Positions 49,830 through 58,071 are shown, numbered from the stretch's first letter. The stretch is DNA of 64,000 nucleotides from Anaerolineae bacterium (GCA_038198935.1 JBBPZQ010000103.1:25649-89648); one strand, 5' to 3'. The notes: a model not told the origin generated them from the letters alone. A program made the numbers and translations.

Positions 49830-49941
49830 TTGACATCTCCATCATCGGATGTTATATTGTGTTCGAGCGGTCTCGTAAGTCCTGGTGTCACTGGCTCCAC
49901 ATTTGGGAGTCCCACTCCGTCCAAACGGTCTTCAGTGATCG

Positions 49942-50581
49942 TCACTGGTCACGGTGGTCATCGGTGCCTAGGGTGAGCCGCTTTTTCTTTTTGGTGCTCA
50001 AATCGTCGAAGTGGATGATCTTCGAGCGGATGATGTTGTAGTACTCGCTGTGATGATGACGATAGTGCTGCATCACAGCCCAAGCCACGAAGTCGGGCGC
50101 GATCATCTCAGGCATTGTCTGTGAGTCGGTCTGATGCAGACGGACGATGTTGCCAGCAACGCCCGCAATCGCCTCGCGTAACCCCAGCCTCCAAGTCCGC
50201 TTGTTGTCTCTTGTTGGTGTGACGTTTGTCAATAAACAGGTCTATGCGAATGTGTCGCCTCACTGCTTGAAGCGCACAACCCTCAATCAATTCTTGGTAA
50301 AGTCTTTCGTAATCCTCAAGCGCATTTCCTCTATTACGCCAGATTGCAACATCAATCGAGATAACCGGATCGTCAGCAAGCGCATTCAGAACCTTTCGCA
50401 ATGTGCGCGGCGGTGAAACGGACGCTTTCAACTCGGAACGCGCTTTCAATTTCAGGACACGCCTCAAGCGTCGCATCGCCAATTCTAGATGGCGGCGATT
50501 CGTCGTGACGACCGAGACGACGGCGACGAAGTGGTCGTCGCTAGTTGCGTACAAGGACTCGTCAACGAAGGCTGCAATCAC
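49942..50581 (-). pseudogene. DUF3800-family gene disrupted by a frameshift
   Basis: The N-terminal part (MIAAFVDESLYAT..., GTG start at 50581) is in the 50108..50581 frame; a plausible C-terminal continuation is in the 49942..50232 frame. Confidence 0.45.
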
Positions 50582-50639
50582 TAGAGCATCCGTGCTGCAA
50601 TGTCATATGGACGACGCAGTGTCTTAAGAGAGCACTCAC

Positions 50640-50686
50640 TGGATTGCCGCTAATGGCGACGAAGGCGGTGGGCAATAGACACCCAC
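50640..50686 (-). pseudogene. degenerate duplicate of the arcC 5' end (encodes LPTAFVAISGNP)
   Basis: About 45 bp with 41 identities to 49793..49838 (LPTAVVAIGGNS). Confidence 0.55.
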
Positions 50687-50694
50687 CTGGTTTT

Positions 50695-56584: not shown

Positions 56585-56666
56585 GGTGTGCCTCGTGTCA
56601 AAGACCTCACAGGCTTGCCCTGAGCACAGCGAAGGGTCTGAAGACCTGTGAGGTCTAGTGCCCTTC

Positions 56667-56852
56667 CTACTTTTTACTTTTCGCCTTCTTCGTTGTCTTC
56701 TCGTTCGGCAACTTCACCCCGCCCAGCAGCCACGCGATGATCGCCTTCTGCGCGTGCAGACGGTTCTCGGCTTGGTCGAACACGATCGAGTTCGGCGAAT
56801 CCATCACCTCATCGGTGATCTCTTCGCCGCGATGCGCGTGAGTACACAGTCC
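56667..56852 (-). pseudogene. duplicate of the ornithine carbamoyltransferase 3' end (last 61 codons)
   Basis: Translates to [60 protein letters not shown], against the arcB C-terminus [60 protein letters not shown]. Confidence 0.7.
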
Positions 56853-57098
56853 TCACGCAGCCATCTGCTCCAAGCGCACCGCAGGCCTGTCGGCATGCGT
56901 CGGTAAGCGCAGTGCGTTGGCGGGCAGCGTTACGACGGCAACCGTGTTGCCGAGCATGTCAAAGAATTCGACACTGTAGCCTGTCTCGCGTGCAGCGACA
57001 TTGTGACGCTCGACCACCGTTCCGACATCGCCAACGCGCAAGTGGTATTCGGGGACATCAAGCACGAGCACGACATCACTATAGAATTGAAAGTCCAA
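56853..57098 (-). CDS. small DUF4926-like protein
   Basis: 81 aa (MDFQFYSDVVLVLDVPEYHLRVGDVGTVVE...); lies exactly between the arcB stop and the arcB 3' fragment. Confidence 0.5.
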   Translation of the reverse strand: MDFQFYSDVVLVLDVPEYHLRVGDVGTVVERHNVAARETGYSVEFFDMLGNTVAVVTLPANALRLPTHADRPAVRLEQMAA

Positions 57099-57099
57099 T

Positions 57100-58071
57100 T
57101 TACTTCTTTGCCTTGCGCCTCACTGCCTTCTTCTCACTCGCCAACTTCACGCCCCCCAGCAGCCACGCGAGGATCGCTTTCTGCGCGTGCAGGCGGTTCT
57201 CGGCTTGGTCGAACACAATCGAGTTGGGCGAGTCGGCCACCGCGTCGGTGATCTCTTCGCCGCGATGGGCGGGCAGGCAGTGCATGATGAGCGCGCGTGA
57301 CGGCGCACTCTGCATCAGCGTCGCATTCAATTGATAATCTTTGAACGCCTTGCGTCGCACCTCGTTCTCCGCTTCTTGGCCCATACTCGTCCACACGTCG
57401 GTATAGACGACATCGGCATTGCGCAGCGCGTCGTGCGGGTCGGTTGTCCAGCGCACACGCGCGCCGCTGTCTTCGGAAAATTCCATCGCGCGCGCCATCA
57501 CCTCTTTGCTCGGCTTGTATGCTTCGGGTGTCGCGACGGTGATGTGCAGTCCGACTTTGCTCGCGCCGAACAGCAAGCCGTTCGCCATGTTGTAGCCATC
57601 GCCGATGAACACGAGTTGTTTGTCGCGCACATCTTTGCCGAGCTGCTCGCGGATGGTGAGCAGGTCTGCCATTACCTGACACGGATGATCGTAATCGCTT
57701 AAGCCATTGATGACCGGCACGCTCGCGTACTGCGCCATCGTTTCCAGATCGCGGTGTCGGAACACGCGCGCCATGATGCCCTGCGTGTAGCGGCTGAGCA
57801 CGCGCGCAATGTCGGGCACAGACTCGCGCTTGCCCATGCCGATCTCCGCGTCGGACAAATACAGTCCGCGCCCGCCGAGCTGATCCATGCCGACCTCGAA
57901 CGAGACGCGCGTGCGCAGCGACGGCTTCTGAAAATACAGCGCGAGCGTTTGTCCCGCGAGAATCGGTTTGTTACCGGCGCGCTTCCATTCGCGCTTCAAC
58001 TTTTCCGCGAGCTGCAGCAGGCCTTCGATTTCAGCAGGTGTGAGATCGGCGAGCGTGAGCAAGTGACGCAT
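57100..58071 (-). CDS. arcB: ornithine carbamoyltransferase
   Basis: Start MRHLLTLADL with AAGGAG RBS; STRTR, HCLP, DVVYTDVWTSMG motifs. Confidence 0.9.
   Translation of the reverse strand: MRHLLTLADLTPAEIEGLLQLAEKLKREWKRAGNKPILAGQTLALYFQKPSLRTRVSFEVGMDQLGGRGLYLSDAEIGMGKRESVPDIARVLSRYTQGIMARVFRHRDLETMAQYASVPVINGLSDYDHPCQVMADLLTIREQLGKDVRDKQLVFIGDGYNMANGLLFGASKVGLHITVATPEAYKPSKEVMARAMEFSEDSGARVRWTTDPHDALRNADVVYTDVWTSMGQEAENEVRRKAFKDYQLNATLMQSAPSRALIMHCLPAHRGEEITDAVADSPNSIVFDQAENRLHAQKAILAWLLGGVKLASEKKAVRRKAKK

What the first reader, a model, noticed from the sequence alone, without database searches (positions are those of the whole stretch)
49836..57100. Type III R-M island inserted between arcC and arcB, flanked by partial duplicates of both gene ends
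- Carbamate kinase (arcC) and ornithine carbamoyltransferase (arcB), normally adjacent, are separated by about 7.3 kb containing mod, a DUF3800 gene, res and a DUF3800 pseudogene.
- Immediately inside the two boundaries lie a 45-bp copy of the arcC 5' end (50640..50686) and a 186-bp copy of the arcB 3' end (56667..56852).
- So the island is bracketed by [arcB 3' fragment]…[arcC 5' fragment] in the same orientation as the intact genes.
- This is the signature of insertion between arcB and arcC by recombination that duplicated the gene ends. It marks the R-M system as horizontally acquired.
Basis: seen in the sequence. Interest (0 to 1): 0.6.

Follow-up and report, generated by a model that had tools for sequence, protein, structure and literature searches.

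The report
Layered defence island splitting arcB–arcC
In an uncultured Anaerolineae bacterium, a Type III restriction-modification system and three small add-on modules have piled up at one recurrent insertion spot between two normally touching arginine-pathway genes, and leftover pieces of a second, diverged copy of each gene end mark the seams; this is a clear example of known processes, not a new kind of element.

Summary
Carbamate kinase (48885-49829) and ornithine carbamoyltransferase (57100-58071) are 7.3 kb apart. A copy of the arcB 3' end (126/143 nt, E 2e-48) and of the arcC 5' end (36/39 nt, E 5e-11) lie inside the gap in gene orientation.

Seven related lineages have the two genes 0-83 nt apart, so the gap content was acquired.

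- **Position of the fragments.** They are not at the island edges. They split the gap into three modules: an orphan DUF4926 immunity-type gene; mod-DUF3800-res; and a frameshifted DUF3800 gene with an intact Rfam DUF3800-III RNA.
- **Origin of the fragments.** The arcB fragment differs from the resident gene mainly at synonymous sites (dN/dS 0.11). It comes from a second functional allele, not from a duplication made on insertion.
- **Recurrence.** Two other lineages carry unrelated cargo at the same junction. One of them also has arcC-5' copies at its cassette seams.

Best reading (about 0.45): an insertion hotspot filled by sequential displacement. The R-M system arrived first, and later cassettes each brought a replacement gene end.

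The DUF3800 gene with a 335-nt RNA-like spacer is itself an insertion inside the R-M operon.

The parts
48885..49829 (-). Intact carbamate kinase (arcC), TTG start
   Evidence: NCBIfam TIGR00746 378.6 bits, above cut-off. Pfam AA_kinase. Syntenic in relatives.
49830..49858 (+). Near-consensus sigma-70-like promoter (TTGACA-17-TATATT, TG-extended) facing the DUF3800-III RNA
   Evidence: 11 of 12 hexamer matches. A consensus match only, not evidence of function.
49864..49984 (+). DUF3800-III RNA motif (Rfam RF02962), convergent with the DUF3800 pseudogene and overlapping its 3' end
   Evidence: 55.8 bits against a gathering score of 43.8, E 2.4e-11, full-length model match.
49942..50581 (-). DUF3800 pseudogene with one frameshift (ORFs 50581-50108 and 50232-49942)
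   Evidence: Pfam DUF3800 at 5e-4 on the first ORF. The stitched protein aligns across the frameshift to the intact DUF3800 at 26% identity. GC3 is 0.54.
50643..50690 (-). Copy of the arcC ribosome-binding region plus its first 11 codons (displaced arcC 5' end)
   Evidence: 36/39 nt, E 5e-11. Alignment with relatives. It carries V-to-F and G-to-S changes at conserved residues.
50695..53361 (-). res, Type III restriction subunit (888 aa)
   Evidence: Pfam ResIII + RE_endonuc. PADLOC REase_III 3e-26. 72% identical and full length against P0141. 89% identical to P0122.
52393..52483 (.). GC-rich palindromic repeat inserted in frame in res (adds 32 aa)
   Evidence: Gap in the alignment to P0141 at Res residues 294-325. 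Hairpin-like chance hits to miRNA models.
53382..53410 (+). Near-consensus sigma-70-like promoter (TTGACA-17-TATACT) facing the structured spacer elements
   Evidence: 11 of 12 hexamer matches. A consensus match only.
53428..53716 (+). Two tandem copies (53428-53540, 53630-53716) of a structured element in the DUF3800-res spacer. The last stem is followed by a T-run. Candidate DUF3800-associated RNA.
   Evidence: Direct repeats D4 and D8. Fold z-scores of -5.0 and -3.9 on the + strand. One compensatory stem change between the copies. Terminator-like site at 53692-53710. No Rfam match at E<=10.
53697..54479 (-). Intact DUF3800 gene (260 aa) nested between mod and res; its start overlaps the mod stop
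   Evidence: Pfam DUF3800 1.5e-6. PADLOC DUF3800_VII 3e-24. Absent from canonical relatives of this R-M system.
54476..56584 (-). mod, Type III methyltransferase (702 aa), with DPPF and FCGSGTT motifs and a PKD-like C-terminus
   Evidence: Pfam N6_N4_Mtase 1.6e-44. PADLOC MTase_III 2.4e-110. 65% identical and full length against the L171 mod.
55195..55294 (.). GC-rich palindromic repeat inserted in frame in mod; a second, partial copy lies at 56242-56292
   Evidence: Repeats D3, I1 and I2. Pattern search: 3 matches against 0 expected. Alignment gaps against the L171 mod.
56603..56656 (-). Hairpin with a 12-bp perfect stem between the arcB-fragment stop and the mod start
   Evidence: Fold of -30.7 kcal/mol, but z-score only -1.2. 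Function unknown.
56667..56843 (-). Displaced arcB 3' end: the last 59 codons plus stop of a second arcB allele
   Evidence: 126/143 nt, E 2e-48. Pfam OTCace 6e-8. dN/dS 0.11, p = 2e-4. Lysine-rich tail like other members of the clade.
56853..57098 (-). Orphan DUF4926 gene (81 aa), starting 1 nt after the arcB stop
   Evidence: Pfam DUF4926 7e-18. The family is predicted to be the immunity partner of BECR-Tox3/DUF6883 toxins. No toxin gene is present here.
57100..58071 (-). Intact ornithine carbamoyltransferase (arcB/OTC)
   Evidence: NCBIfam TIGR00658 402.8 bits, above cut-off. Identical to P0001.

Best explanation
The arcB|arcC junction of this Anaerolineae lineage is a recurrent insertion hotspot for defence and toxin-antitoxin-type cargo. 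The 7.3-kb gap is a layered island built in several steps, not one insertion.

Proposed order (inferred):
1. A Type III R-M operon (mod-res) landed in the short arcB-arcC spacer.
2. A DUF3800 gene with its 335-nt RNA-like spacer was inserted between mod and res.
3. A DUF4926 cassette joined at the arcB side, and a DUF3800 + DUF3800-III RNA cassette joined at the arcC side.

Each of the step 3 cassettes arrived on DNA from a related lineage together with a replacement copy of the conserved gene end: about 180 nt of the arcB 3' end, and the ribosome-binding site plus 33 nt of the arcC 5' end. Recombination through that short conserved homology kept arcB and arcC intact and pushed the resident gene ends inward, where they remain as fragments. 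The recombination could be a Campbell-like single crossover of a small circle, or homology-facilitated illegitimate recombination of linear DNA.

The R-M system itself should work as Type III systems do, going by general knowledge of EcoP15I-type enzymes. Mod methylates adenine in a short asymmetric site. A Mod-Res complex uses the Res ATPase and nuclease to cut unmethylated foreign DNA.

Shown here: gene identities, the fragments, the empty sites, the recurrence, and the divergence pattern. Inferred: the order of events and the recombination mechanism.
For: **Empty sites.** Seven related lineages have arcB and arcC overlapping or 5-83 nt apart.

**Independent, unrelated cargo at the same junction:**
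- L162 has a 1.28-kb gap holding a decayed PIN cassette and an intact antitoxin-PIN pair.
- L064/L174 have a 660-bp gap holding a frameshifted, truncated DNA methyltransferase remnant that is unrelated to this Mod.

**Seam copies recur.**
- L162 carries two extra direct copies of the ribosome-binding site plus arcC 5' end at its cassette seams (26/26 nt and 31/32 nt; 27/27 nt with the longer probe).
- The first copy sits at the native arcB-arcC junction.
- Copy boundaries fall at +26, +32 and +33 of arcC in the two genomes.
- No other locus among 166 scanned shows such copies.

**Fragment origin.**
- The arcB fragment diverged under purifying selection: dS 0.42, dN 0.047, p = 2e-4.
- It is no closer to the resident allele (89.2%) than the resident allele is to the L164 ortholog (91.7%).

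**Other support.**
- The geometry fits two small DR-flanked units with periods of 433 and 846 nt.
- There is no recombinase or tRNA gene in the island. None is evident in the syntenic window flanks, and none appears among the Pfam-annotated genes within 10 kb in L162.
- GC3 is closest to the host for mod and res (0.71-0.74) and lowest for the DUF3800 modules (0.54-0.64).
- Canonical relatives of this R-M system have mod and res 2 nt apart.

**Published precedents.**
- e14 in icd, with the displaced icdC 3' fragment (PMC13626634).
- Sequential displacement by homology-facilitated illegitimate recombination in T6SS immunity arrays and Rhs loci (PMC5361080).
Against: - The order of events is not directly observable. 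No genome with the 'B' allele, or with an intermediate state such as arcB-mod-res-arcC alone, was found.
- A sliding comparison of arcB against nine orthologs shows no switch of nearest neighbour at the 3' end, so mosaicism of the intact gene is not demonstrated.
- Only two genomes show seam copies, and only this window has an arcB-side copy.
- A homology of 26-47 nt is at the lower limit for RecA-type recombination.
- The R-M module itself has no flanking repeat, so its own mode of entry is unexplained.
- The arcB-side junctions rest on one assembly only.
Confidence: 0.45

Rival explanations
1. The R-M system arrived last, as one block. A donor lineage already had mod-DUF3800-res between its own arcB and arcC. 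A linear fragment cut inside those genes (about 180-190 nt before the arcB stop, and 33 nt into arcC) was inserted by illegitimate joining between DUF4926 and DUF3800 cassettes already present in the recipient. This is the closest formal version of the first reader's idea.
For: - The fragments bracket exactly mod-DUF3800-res and come from a diverged functional allele.
- The closest Res homolog (89%) lies in a different genomic context in another MAG, so this R-M system does move.
- The comparison of arcB with its orthologs gives no sign that the intact gene ends are imported.
Against: - A fragment with 180-nt and 47-nt terminal homology to the recipient should integrate by ordinary double crossover. 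That would replace the cassettes and leave no duplicates.
- Two illegitimate joins at the homologous locus would be a coincidence.
- The arcC-side cut at +33 coincides with the cassette seams at +26 and +32 in L162, which a random fragment end does not explain.
- It needs one more event than the main model.
- mod and res have the most host-like GC3 in the island.
Confidence: 0.17
2. The seams are attachment sites. A recombinase encoded elsewhere in the genome inserts small circular cassettes site-specifically into the arcC 5' end (and the arcB 3' end). Each cassette carries an attP-like copy of the gene end, as phages do when they integrate into icd or tRNA genes, or as integron cassettes do at attI.
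For: - Three seam boundaries lie within 7 nt of each other in two genomes.
- The units are small and carry one or two genes each, about 0.43-0.85 kb.
- The order intact gene end - cargo - displaced gene end is that of e14/icd-icdC.
Against: - No integrase, resolvase or transposase lies in the island, and none appears among the Pfam-annotated genes within 10 kb in L162. The window flanks are syntenic with relatives.
- The boundaries are not identical (+26, +32, +33).
- There is no shared inverted-repeat core or attC-like structure at cassette ends (by inspection).
- The arcC 5' sequence is strongly conserved across the clade simply as coding sequence. That alone makes it a good substrate for homologous recombination.
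Confidence: 0.15
3. In-situ tandem duplication of the gene ends followed by decay of the spare copies.
For: Direct orientation and short spacing of the copies, 433 and 846 nt.
Against: - dS is 0.42 with dN/dS of 0.11 in the arcB fragment. A dead copy should accumulate changes evenly across codon positions.
- The fragment is as distant from the resident allele as orthologs from other species are.
- The cargo between the copies is foreign.
Confidence: 0.03
4. Assembly chimera joining two co-occurring strains that differ at this locus.
For: The sequence is a metagenome-assembled contig. The two alleles are 88-92% identical, as strain or species variants would be.
Against: - An independent Logan assembly is 100% identical over 45243-51914, which includes res - arcC copy - DUF3800 pseudogene - arcC.
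- The exact DUF4926 and DUF3800 proteins also occur in the Logan data.
- A graph chimera would switch inside shared k-mers and give a hybrid gene. It would not join the DUF4926 end to an internal point of arcB where no sequence is shared.
Confidence: 0.04

Closest known systems
Type III restriction-modification systems (EcoP15I/EcoP1I type; mod upstream of res)
   Same: - Mod is an N6_N4 methyltransferase with a DPPF motif upstream of an FxGxG motif.
- Res has an SF2 ATPase domain (GSGKT, DEAH) and a C-terminal PD-(D/E)xK-type nuclease.
- The gene order is mod then res.
- Very close homologs occur throughout Anaerolineae, and JGI names them type III enzymes.
   Different: - The operon is interrupted by a 1.1-kb DUF3800 + spacer insertion.
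- Both genes carry in-frame GC-rich palindromic repeat insertions.
- Mod has a PKD-like C-terminal domain.
- The recognition site and activity are unknown.
e14 / phage 21 integration into icd, leaving the icdC 3' pseudogene (Hill et al. 1989, as described in PMC13626634)
   Same: - An incoming element supplies a diverged but functional replacement for the 3' end of a housekeeping gene.
- The displaced native end survives as a fragment on the far side of the cargo.
- Differences between the copies are mostly conservative.
   Different: - No integrase and no prophage are present here.
- The unit bounded by the arcB copies is only 433 nt and holds one 81-aa gene.
- A mirror-image event affects the 5' end of the neighbouring gene.
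Sequential displacement by homology-facilitated illegitimate recombination (V. cholerae T6SS effector-immunity arrays; Rhs orphan 3' ends; PMC5361080)
   Same: - A conserved gene serves as the anchor.
- New modules enter next to it and shift older modules and old gene ends inward.
- Orphan immunity-type genes accumulate.
- The alleles held in one genome come from different lineages.
   Different: - The anchors are metabolic genes (arcB and arcC), not toxin genes.
- Displacement occurs from both sides.
- The cargo is mixed: R-M, DUF3800-RNA and an immunity gene.
Defence-island or accessory-gene hotspots between conserved core genes
   Same: The flanks are fixed and syntenic, most relatives have empty sites, and other relatives carry unrelated defence or TA cargo.
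   Different: - The hotspot is inside a two-gene operon with a 0-83-nt spacer.
- The seams keep sequence scars that record the steps.
DUF3800 proteins with DUF3800-I to -XI RNA motifs (Weinberg et al. 2017, PMC5737381); the DUF3800 effector of type VII retrons (PMC7736814)
   Same: - One DUF3800 gene is paired with a bona fide DUF3800-III RNA.
- The other matches the PADLOC retron-VII DUF3800 model and has a structured spacer in the same relative position.
   Different: - No reverse transcriptase is present.
- The second RNA matches no Rfam family.
- One module sits inside an R-M operon.
Integron gene cassettes
   Same: The units are small and hold one or two genes, stacked in one orientation at one site. 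Older units are pushed away from the insertion point.
   Different: There is no IntI and there are no attC sites. The seams are copies of a host gene end. The cassettes appear to carry their own promoters (L162).

Membership tests
Type III R-M system | Mod subunit: beta-class N6-adenine/N4-cytosine DNA methyltransferase, with motif IV (DPPY/F) upstream of motif I (FxGxG) | tested here: met
   Pfam N6_N4_Mtase 1.6e-44. PADLOC MTase_III 2.4e-110. DPPF near residue 84 and FCGSGTT near residue 367 are visible in the alignment.
Type III R-M system | Res subunit: SF2 helicase-like ATPase plus a C-terminal PD-(D/E)xK endonuclease | tested here: met
   Pfam ResIII 1.7e-13 and RE_endonuc 8e-6 at residues 758-835. 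PADLOC REase_III 3e-26. GSGKT, DEAH and EPDF...ETKG motifs are conserved against P0141.
Type III R-M system | mod immediately upstream of res in one operon | tested here: inconclusive
   The order mod then res is kept. However, 1.1 kb (DUF3800 + 335-nt spacer) separates them, whereas relatives have a 2-nt gap. Co-transcription was not tested.
Type III R-M system | Hemimethylation of an asymmetric site, and ATP-dependent cleavage requiring inversely oriented sites | not testable with these tools
   Needs methylome data (SMRT or Nanopore) and enzymology.
Arginine deiminase-pathway pair arcB-arcC | Ornithine carbamoyltransferase and carbamate kinase equivalogs, adjacent to each other | tested here: met
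   TIGR00658 at 402.8 bits (cut-off 281) and TIGR00746 at 378.6 bits (cut-off 358). The two are adjacent in 7 related lineages. No arcA was seen nearby, so a catabolic role is an inference from the names only.
DUF3800-III RNA (Rfam RF02962) | Score above the family gathering threshold, and location next to a DUF3800 gene | tested here: met
   55.8 bits against 43.8, with a full-length model match. It overlaps the 3' end of the DUF3800 pseudogene on the opposite strand.
Integrase-mediated integrative element (e14/icd type) | Element-encoded or adjacent site-specific recombinase | tested here: not met
   No recombinase domain in any island ORF. The window flanks are syntenic with relatives, and no recombinase appears among the Pfam-annotated genes within 10 kb in L162.
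Integrase-mediated integrative element (e14/icd type) | The gene end is regenerated by the incoming DNA, and the displaced native end lies on the far side of the cargo | tested here: met
   Order: arcB - DUF4926 - arcB fragment, and arcC copy - DUF3800 pseudogene - arcC.
Integron | intI gene, attI site, and attC sites bounding the cassettes | tested here: not met
   No tyrosine recombinase in the island or in L162 within 10 kb. The seams are copies of the arcC 5' end, not attC-like imperfect palindromes.
Retron type VII (RT + DUF3800) | Reverse transcriptase and msr/msd RNA adjacent to the DUF3800 effector | tested here: not met
   The DUF3800 protein matches PADLOC DUF3800_VII at 3e-24. No RT-like ORF is in the island.

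The most novel reading that the evidence does not exclude
The conserved ends of arcB and arcC may act as reusable docking sites for integrase-less mini-cassettes of 0.4-0.9 kb. The cassettes seen are TA pairs, an orphan immunity gene, and DUF3800 + RNA modules.

Such cassettes would loop out by recombination between their flanking gene-end repeats and re-enter other genomes through the same short homology. The result would be an integron-like cassette array built on housekeeping gene ends.

Within it, a DUF3800 nuclease paired with a convergent, self-promoted structured RNA would be a toxin/RNA-antitoxin-type addiction or abortive-infection module. The 53428-53716 element would then be an undescribed twelfth DUF3800-associated RNA class, here nested inside an R-M operon.
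Probability: 0.12. Interest if true: 0.7.

Novelty: new member of a known kind. Interest (0 to 1): 0.4.

Why it matters
The locus keeps sequence scars that record how accessory genes pile up at a chromosomal hotspot. Displaced ends of a second allele of both flanking genes separate the layers. A second genome shows the same kind of scar with different cargo.

That gives a concrete, testable case of short-homology or homology-facilitated capture of defence and TA cargo in an uncultured phylum, with no integrase in sight.

It also places two DUF3800 modules in an informative setting. Each is convergent with a structured RNA that has a near-consensus promoter. This suggests an RNA-antitoxin-like relationship for a protein-RNA pairing whose function has been open since 2017.

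The R-M system and the hotspot idea themselves are ordinary.

Tried and rejected
- **Donor 'B' allele not found.** No arcB among the 23 closest database homologs has the fragment's tail [15 protein letters not shown].
- **No mosaic signal in intact arcB.** A sliding identity comparison against nine orthologs shows no change of nearest neighbour at the 3' end. This test does not separate 'outer modules last' from 'R-M last'.
- **Closest Res homolog is elsewhere.** P0122 (89%) is not between arcB and arcC. It lies on another contig of the L162 MAG, and homology stops 15 nt before the res stop, so the arcC copy is not part of a mobile R-M unit there.
- **The two DUF3800 genes are not recent duplicates.** They share only 26% identity.
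- **The L064/L174 methyltransferase remnant is unrelated to this Mod**. Its Pfam match is below the curated threshold: 23.4 bits against 26.7, on a hand-stitched frameshift correction.
- **The candidate spacer RNA could not be tested by comparison.**
  - No Rfam match.
  - No further copies in the window or in fetched loci.
  - No matches in viral contigs.
  - No plasmid homolog of the protein.
  - Covariation could not be measured.
- **The hairpin between the arcB fragment and mod is not remarkable.** Its z-score is -1.2 and it lacks a T-tract.
- **No tRNA gene is nearby**.
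Full report
**What is in the window.** All features lie on the minus strand. In gene direction the order is:
- OTC/arcB, 58071-57100.
- An 81-aa DUF4926 ORF, 57098-56853.
- A fragment of the arcB 3' end, 56843-56667.
- An 82-nt spacer with a hairpin.
- mod, 56584-54476.
- DUF3800, 54479-53697.
- A 335-nt spacer.
- res, 53361-50695.
- A copy of the arcC start region, about 50690-50643.
- A frameshifted DUF3800 gene, 50581-49942.
- arcC, 49829-48885.

Gene identities rest on Pfam, PADLOC and NCBIfam:
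- arcC: TIGR00746, 378.6 bits against a cut-off of 358.
- OTC: TIGR00658, 402.8 bits against a cut-off of 281.
- Mod: N6_N4_Mtase 1.6e-44 and PADLOC MTase_III 2.4e-110.
- Res: ResIII + RE_endonuc and PADLOC REase_III 3e-26.
- DUF4926: 7e-18.
- DUF3800: 1.5e-6, and PADLOC DUF3800_VII 3e-24.

**The observation.** Both duplicates are real and far beyond chance.
- The arcB 3' copy matches at 126/143 nt (E 2e-48).
- The arcC 5' copy matches at 36/39 nt (E 5e-11).
- The arcB copy stays in frame and collinear to its own stop codon. It is the last 59 codons of an OTC gene.
- The arcC copy covers the ribosome-binding region and the first 11 codons.

The fragments are therefore not at the island edges. 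They bracket only mod-DUF3800-res. DUF4926 and the DUF3800 pseudogene sit between each fragment and the corresponding intact gene.

An independent Logan assembly of SRR24807095 is identical over 45243-51914. The exact DUF4926 and DUF3800 proteins also occur in Logan data. An assembly chimera is therefore unlikely, at least on the arcC side.

**Acquisition.** The organism is an uncultured Anaerolineae. The best relatives have arcB at 75-87% amino-acid identity. The synteny Bac_transf - arcB - arcC - glycosyltransferase - 230-aa gene - Wzz - ParA-like is conserved across them.

| Locus | arcB-arcC spacing |
|---|---|
| L082 | 5 nt |
| L163 | 4-nt overlap |
| L164, L165 | 83 nt |
| L166 | 11 nt |
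| L167 | 29 nt |
| L168 | 25 nt |
| L169 | 17 nt |

Window ORFs at 41824-49829 and 57100-63966 all have counterparts in those loci, whereas the island ORFs have none. GC3 is 0.76-0.85 in the flanks. It is 0.74 for res, 0.71 for mod, 0.67 for DUF4926, 0.64 for DUF3800 and 0.54 for the pseudogene.

**A hotspot, not a single event.** Two other lineages have the same junction filled with unrelated cargo.
- **L162 (GCA_030157145.1).** It carries 1.28 kb holding a decayed cassette and an intact antitoxin-PIN pair. The decayed cassette has a truncated PIN N-terminus and a 116-aa ORF.
- **L064/L174.** They carry 660 bp holding a frameshifted, truncated DNA methyltransferase remnant. The stitched sequence scores 23.4 bits, just under the Pfam threshold. 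It is unrelated to this Mod.

L162 also has two extra direct copies of the ribosome-binding site plus arcC 5' end (26/26 nt and 31/32 nt). The first sits at the native arcB-arcC junction and the second lies between the two cassettes. The copies end at +26 and +32 of arcC, and the window's copy ends at +33. Among 166 arcC loci scanned, only these two genomes show such copies. Gene-end copies at cassette seams are therefore a recurring feature of this hotspot.

**Nature of the fragments.** Over codons 3-43, the arcB fragment differs from the resident allele with dS 0.42 and dN 0.047, so dN/dS is 0.11. Ten of 14 differences are synonymous where 24% would be expected (binomial p = 2e-4).

In the conserved core, the resident allele is 91.7% identical to the L164 ortholog and 89.2% identical to the adjacent fragment. 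The fragment's lysine-rich tail resembles tails in other clade members. So the fragment comes from a second arcB allele that evolved as a working gene in another lineage. It is not a target-site duplication or an in-situ duplicate.

The short arcC copy carries V-to-F and G-to-S changes at conserved residues, as expected for a dead remnant.

**Most likely history and mechanism.** The geometry is: intact gene end - small cargo - displaced gene end, on both sides.
- The arcB side has a period of 433 nt.
- The arcC side has a period of 846 nt.
- On the arcB side, similarity between the copies stops exactly at the stop codon. The fragment then continues into the hairpin and mod.
- On the arcC side, similarity starts about 14 nt upstream of the start codon and stops at +33.

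This is what one expects if the earlier state was arcB-[mod...res]-arcC. Two small DNA units would then have recombined through a short gene-end homology they carried: {arcB 3' end + DUF4926} and {arcC ribosome-binding site and 5' end + DUF3800 + RNA}. This could happen by a Campbell-like single crossover of a circle, or by homology-facilitated illegitimate recombination of linear DNA.

Published parallels are e14 in icd with the displaced icdC fragment (PMC13626634), and sequential displacement in T6SS immunity arrays and Rhs loci (PMC5361080). No recombinase or tRNA gene lies in the island. None is evident in its syntenic flanks, and none appears among the annotated genes within 10 kb in L162. 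I give this model about 0.45.

The main rival has the R-M block with donor gene-end scraps inserted last. It needs two illegitimate joins at a locus where good homology was available, and it does not explain why seam positions coincide with L162. A trans-acting site-specific recombinase cannot be excluded. A test for mosaicism of the intact arcB was uninformative, and no intermediate genome or B-allele genome was found.

**The R-M system.** Mod and Res are full length against canonical relatives. Mod is 65% identical to the L171 mod, and Res is 72% identical to P0141. All catalytic motifs are kept: DPPF, FCGSGTT, GSGKT, DEAH and EPDF...ETKG.

They differ from those relatives by in-frame insertions that coincide with GC-rich palindromic repeats, at 52393-52483 in res and at 55195-55294 and 56242-56292 in mod. 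In relatives, mod and res are 2 nt apart. Here a DUF3800 gene and a 335-nt spacer sit between them.

In L170, which holds the closest Res homolog (89%), other genes occupy that slot, and there are duplicated fragments of the mod 3' end and the res 5' end. Those genes include one encoding a TIR-like protein. The mod-res junction is thus a second, nested insertion point. The system is expected to work as Type III enzymes do, but activity and recognition site were not tested.

**DUF3800 modules.** Rfam finds a full-length DUF3800-III RNA at 49864-49984 on the + strand (55.8 bits against 43.8). It is convergent with the pseudogene and overlaps its 3' end. An 11/12 sigma-70-like promoter at 49830-49858 lies immediately upstream.

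The intact DUF3800 gene has an analogous arrangement:
- An 11/12 promoter at 53382-53410 on the + strand.
- Two tandem copies of a three-way-junction element at 53428-53540 and 53630-53716, with fold z-scores of -5.0 and -3.9.
- One compensatory stem change between the copies.
- A terminator-like stem and T-run overlapping the gene's 3' end.

This element matches no Rfam family. It could not be tested by covariation, because no homologous DNA could be retrieved.

DUF3800 is a predicted RNase H-fold protein. It is the effector of type VII retrons, and it is known to associate with 11 unrelated RNA motifs of unknown role (PMC5737381, PMC7736814, PMC10910872). The convergent, 3'-overlapping geometry suggests an RNA-antitoxin-like relationship. 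That is an inference.

DUF4926 is reported as the immunity partner downstream of BECR-Tox3/DUF6883 toxins. Here it is an orphan that starts 1 nt after the arcB stop.

**Verdict.** It is wrong in treating the scars as duplications made by one R-M insertion.

The locus is a good example of known processes: hotspot filling, displaced gene ends, and a Type III R-M system. It has two modestly novel side features, namely seam copies recurring in a second genome, and DUF3800-RNA modules of which one sits inside the R-M operon. Interest is 0.4.

Noticed in passing
window 49830-49984 (+): A full-length DUF3800-III RNA (Rfam RF02962, 55.8 bits) with an 11/12 sigma-70-like promoter directly upstream. It is convergent with the frameshifted DUF3800 gene and overlaps its 3' end. 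The RNA looks intact although the protein gene is broken.
   Followed up: partly
window 53382-53720 (+): Two tandem copies of a structured three-way-junction element between DUF3800 and res. They have an 11/12 promoter upstream and a terminator-like end, one compensatory stem change between copies, and no Rfam match. This is a candidate new DUF3800-associated RNA, not yet tested by covariation.
   Followed up: partly
window 52393-52483, 55195-55294, 56242-56292: GC-rich palindromic repeats of the type that translates as PSPSGRG.GEG are inserted in frame in res (+32 aa) and mod (+26 aa and +7 aa) without breaking the ORFs. In this 64-kb window the searched core motifs were found only in mod; the res element is a related GC-rich hairpin. 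The 89%-identical Res P0122 is also 888 aa, which suggests it has the res insertion too.
   Followed up: partly
L170 1-3400 (GCA_030157145.1, JASDBE010000181.1): Upstream of the closest Res homolog, the mod-res slot holds different genes: a TIR-like 339-aa protein and ORFs of 253, 122 and 187 aa. Duplicated fragments of the mod 3' end and the res 5' end lie between them. The mod-res junction therefore also behaves as a cassette insertion point.
   Followed up: partly
L162 10979-12258: Both cassettes in this relative's arcB-arcC gap begin, right after the arcC-5' copy, with a similar promoter-like sequence (TGGATT..ATG.GCGATAAT). The older cassette retains only a truncated PIN N-terminus. An older TA unit seems to have been displaced by a newer one of the same family.
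   Followed up: partly
window 54476-54590 (Mod residues 665-700): Mod ends in a PKD/Ig-like domain (Pfam PKD_4 5e-5, below threshold). The domain is conserved in the L171 relative. This is unusual for a Type III methyltransferase.
   Followed up: no
window 58072-58164: The arcB ORF extends 31 codons upstream of the conserved MRHLLTL start and overlaps the end of the Bac_transf gene. Homologs start at MRHLLTL, so the longer ORF is probably not used.
   Followed up: no
window 41800-49800 and 58100-64000: arcB-arcC are embedded in a conserved exopolysaccharide-type cluster (Bac_transf, several GT4 glycosyltransferases, Wzz, a ParA-like tyrosine-kinase-type ATPase). No arcA was seen in the flanks examined (about 41800-64000), so the 'arginine deiminase pathway' label may not describe their role here.
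   Followed up: no
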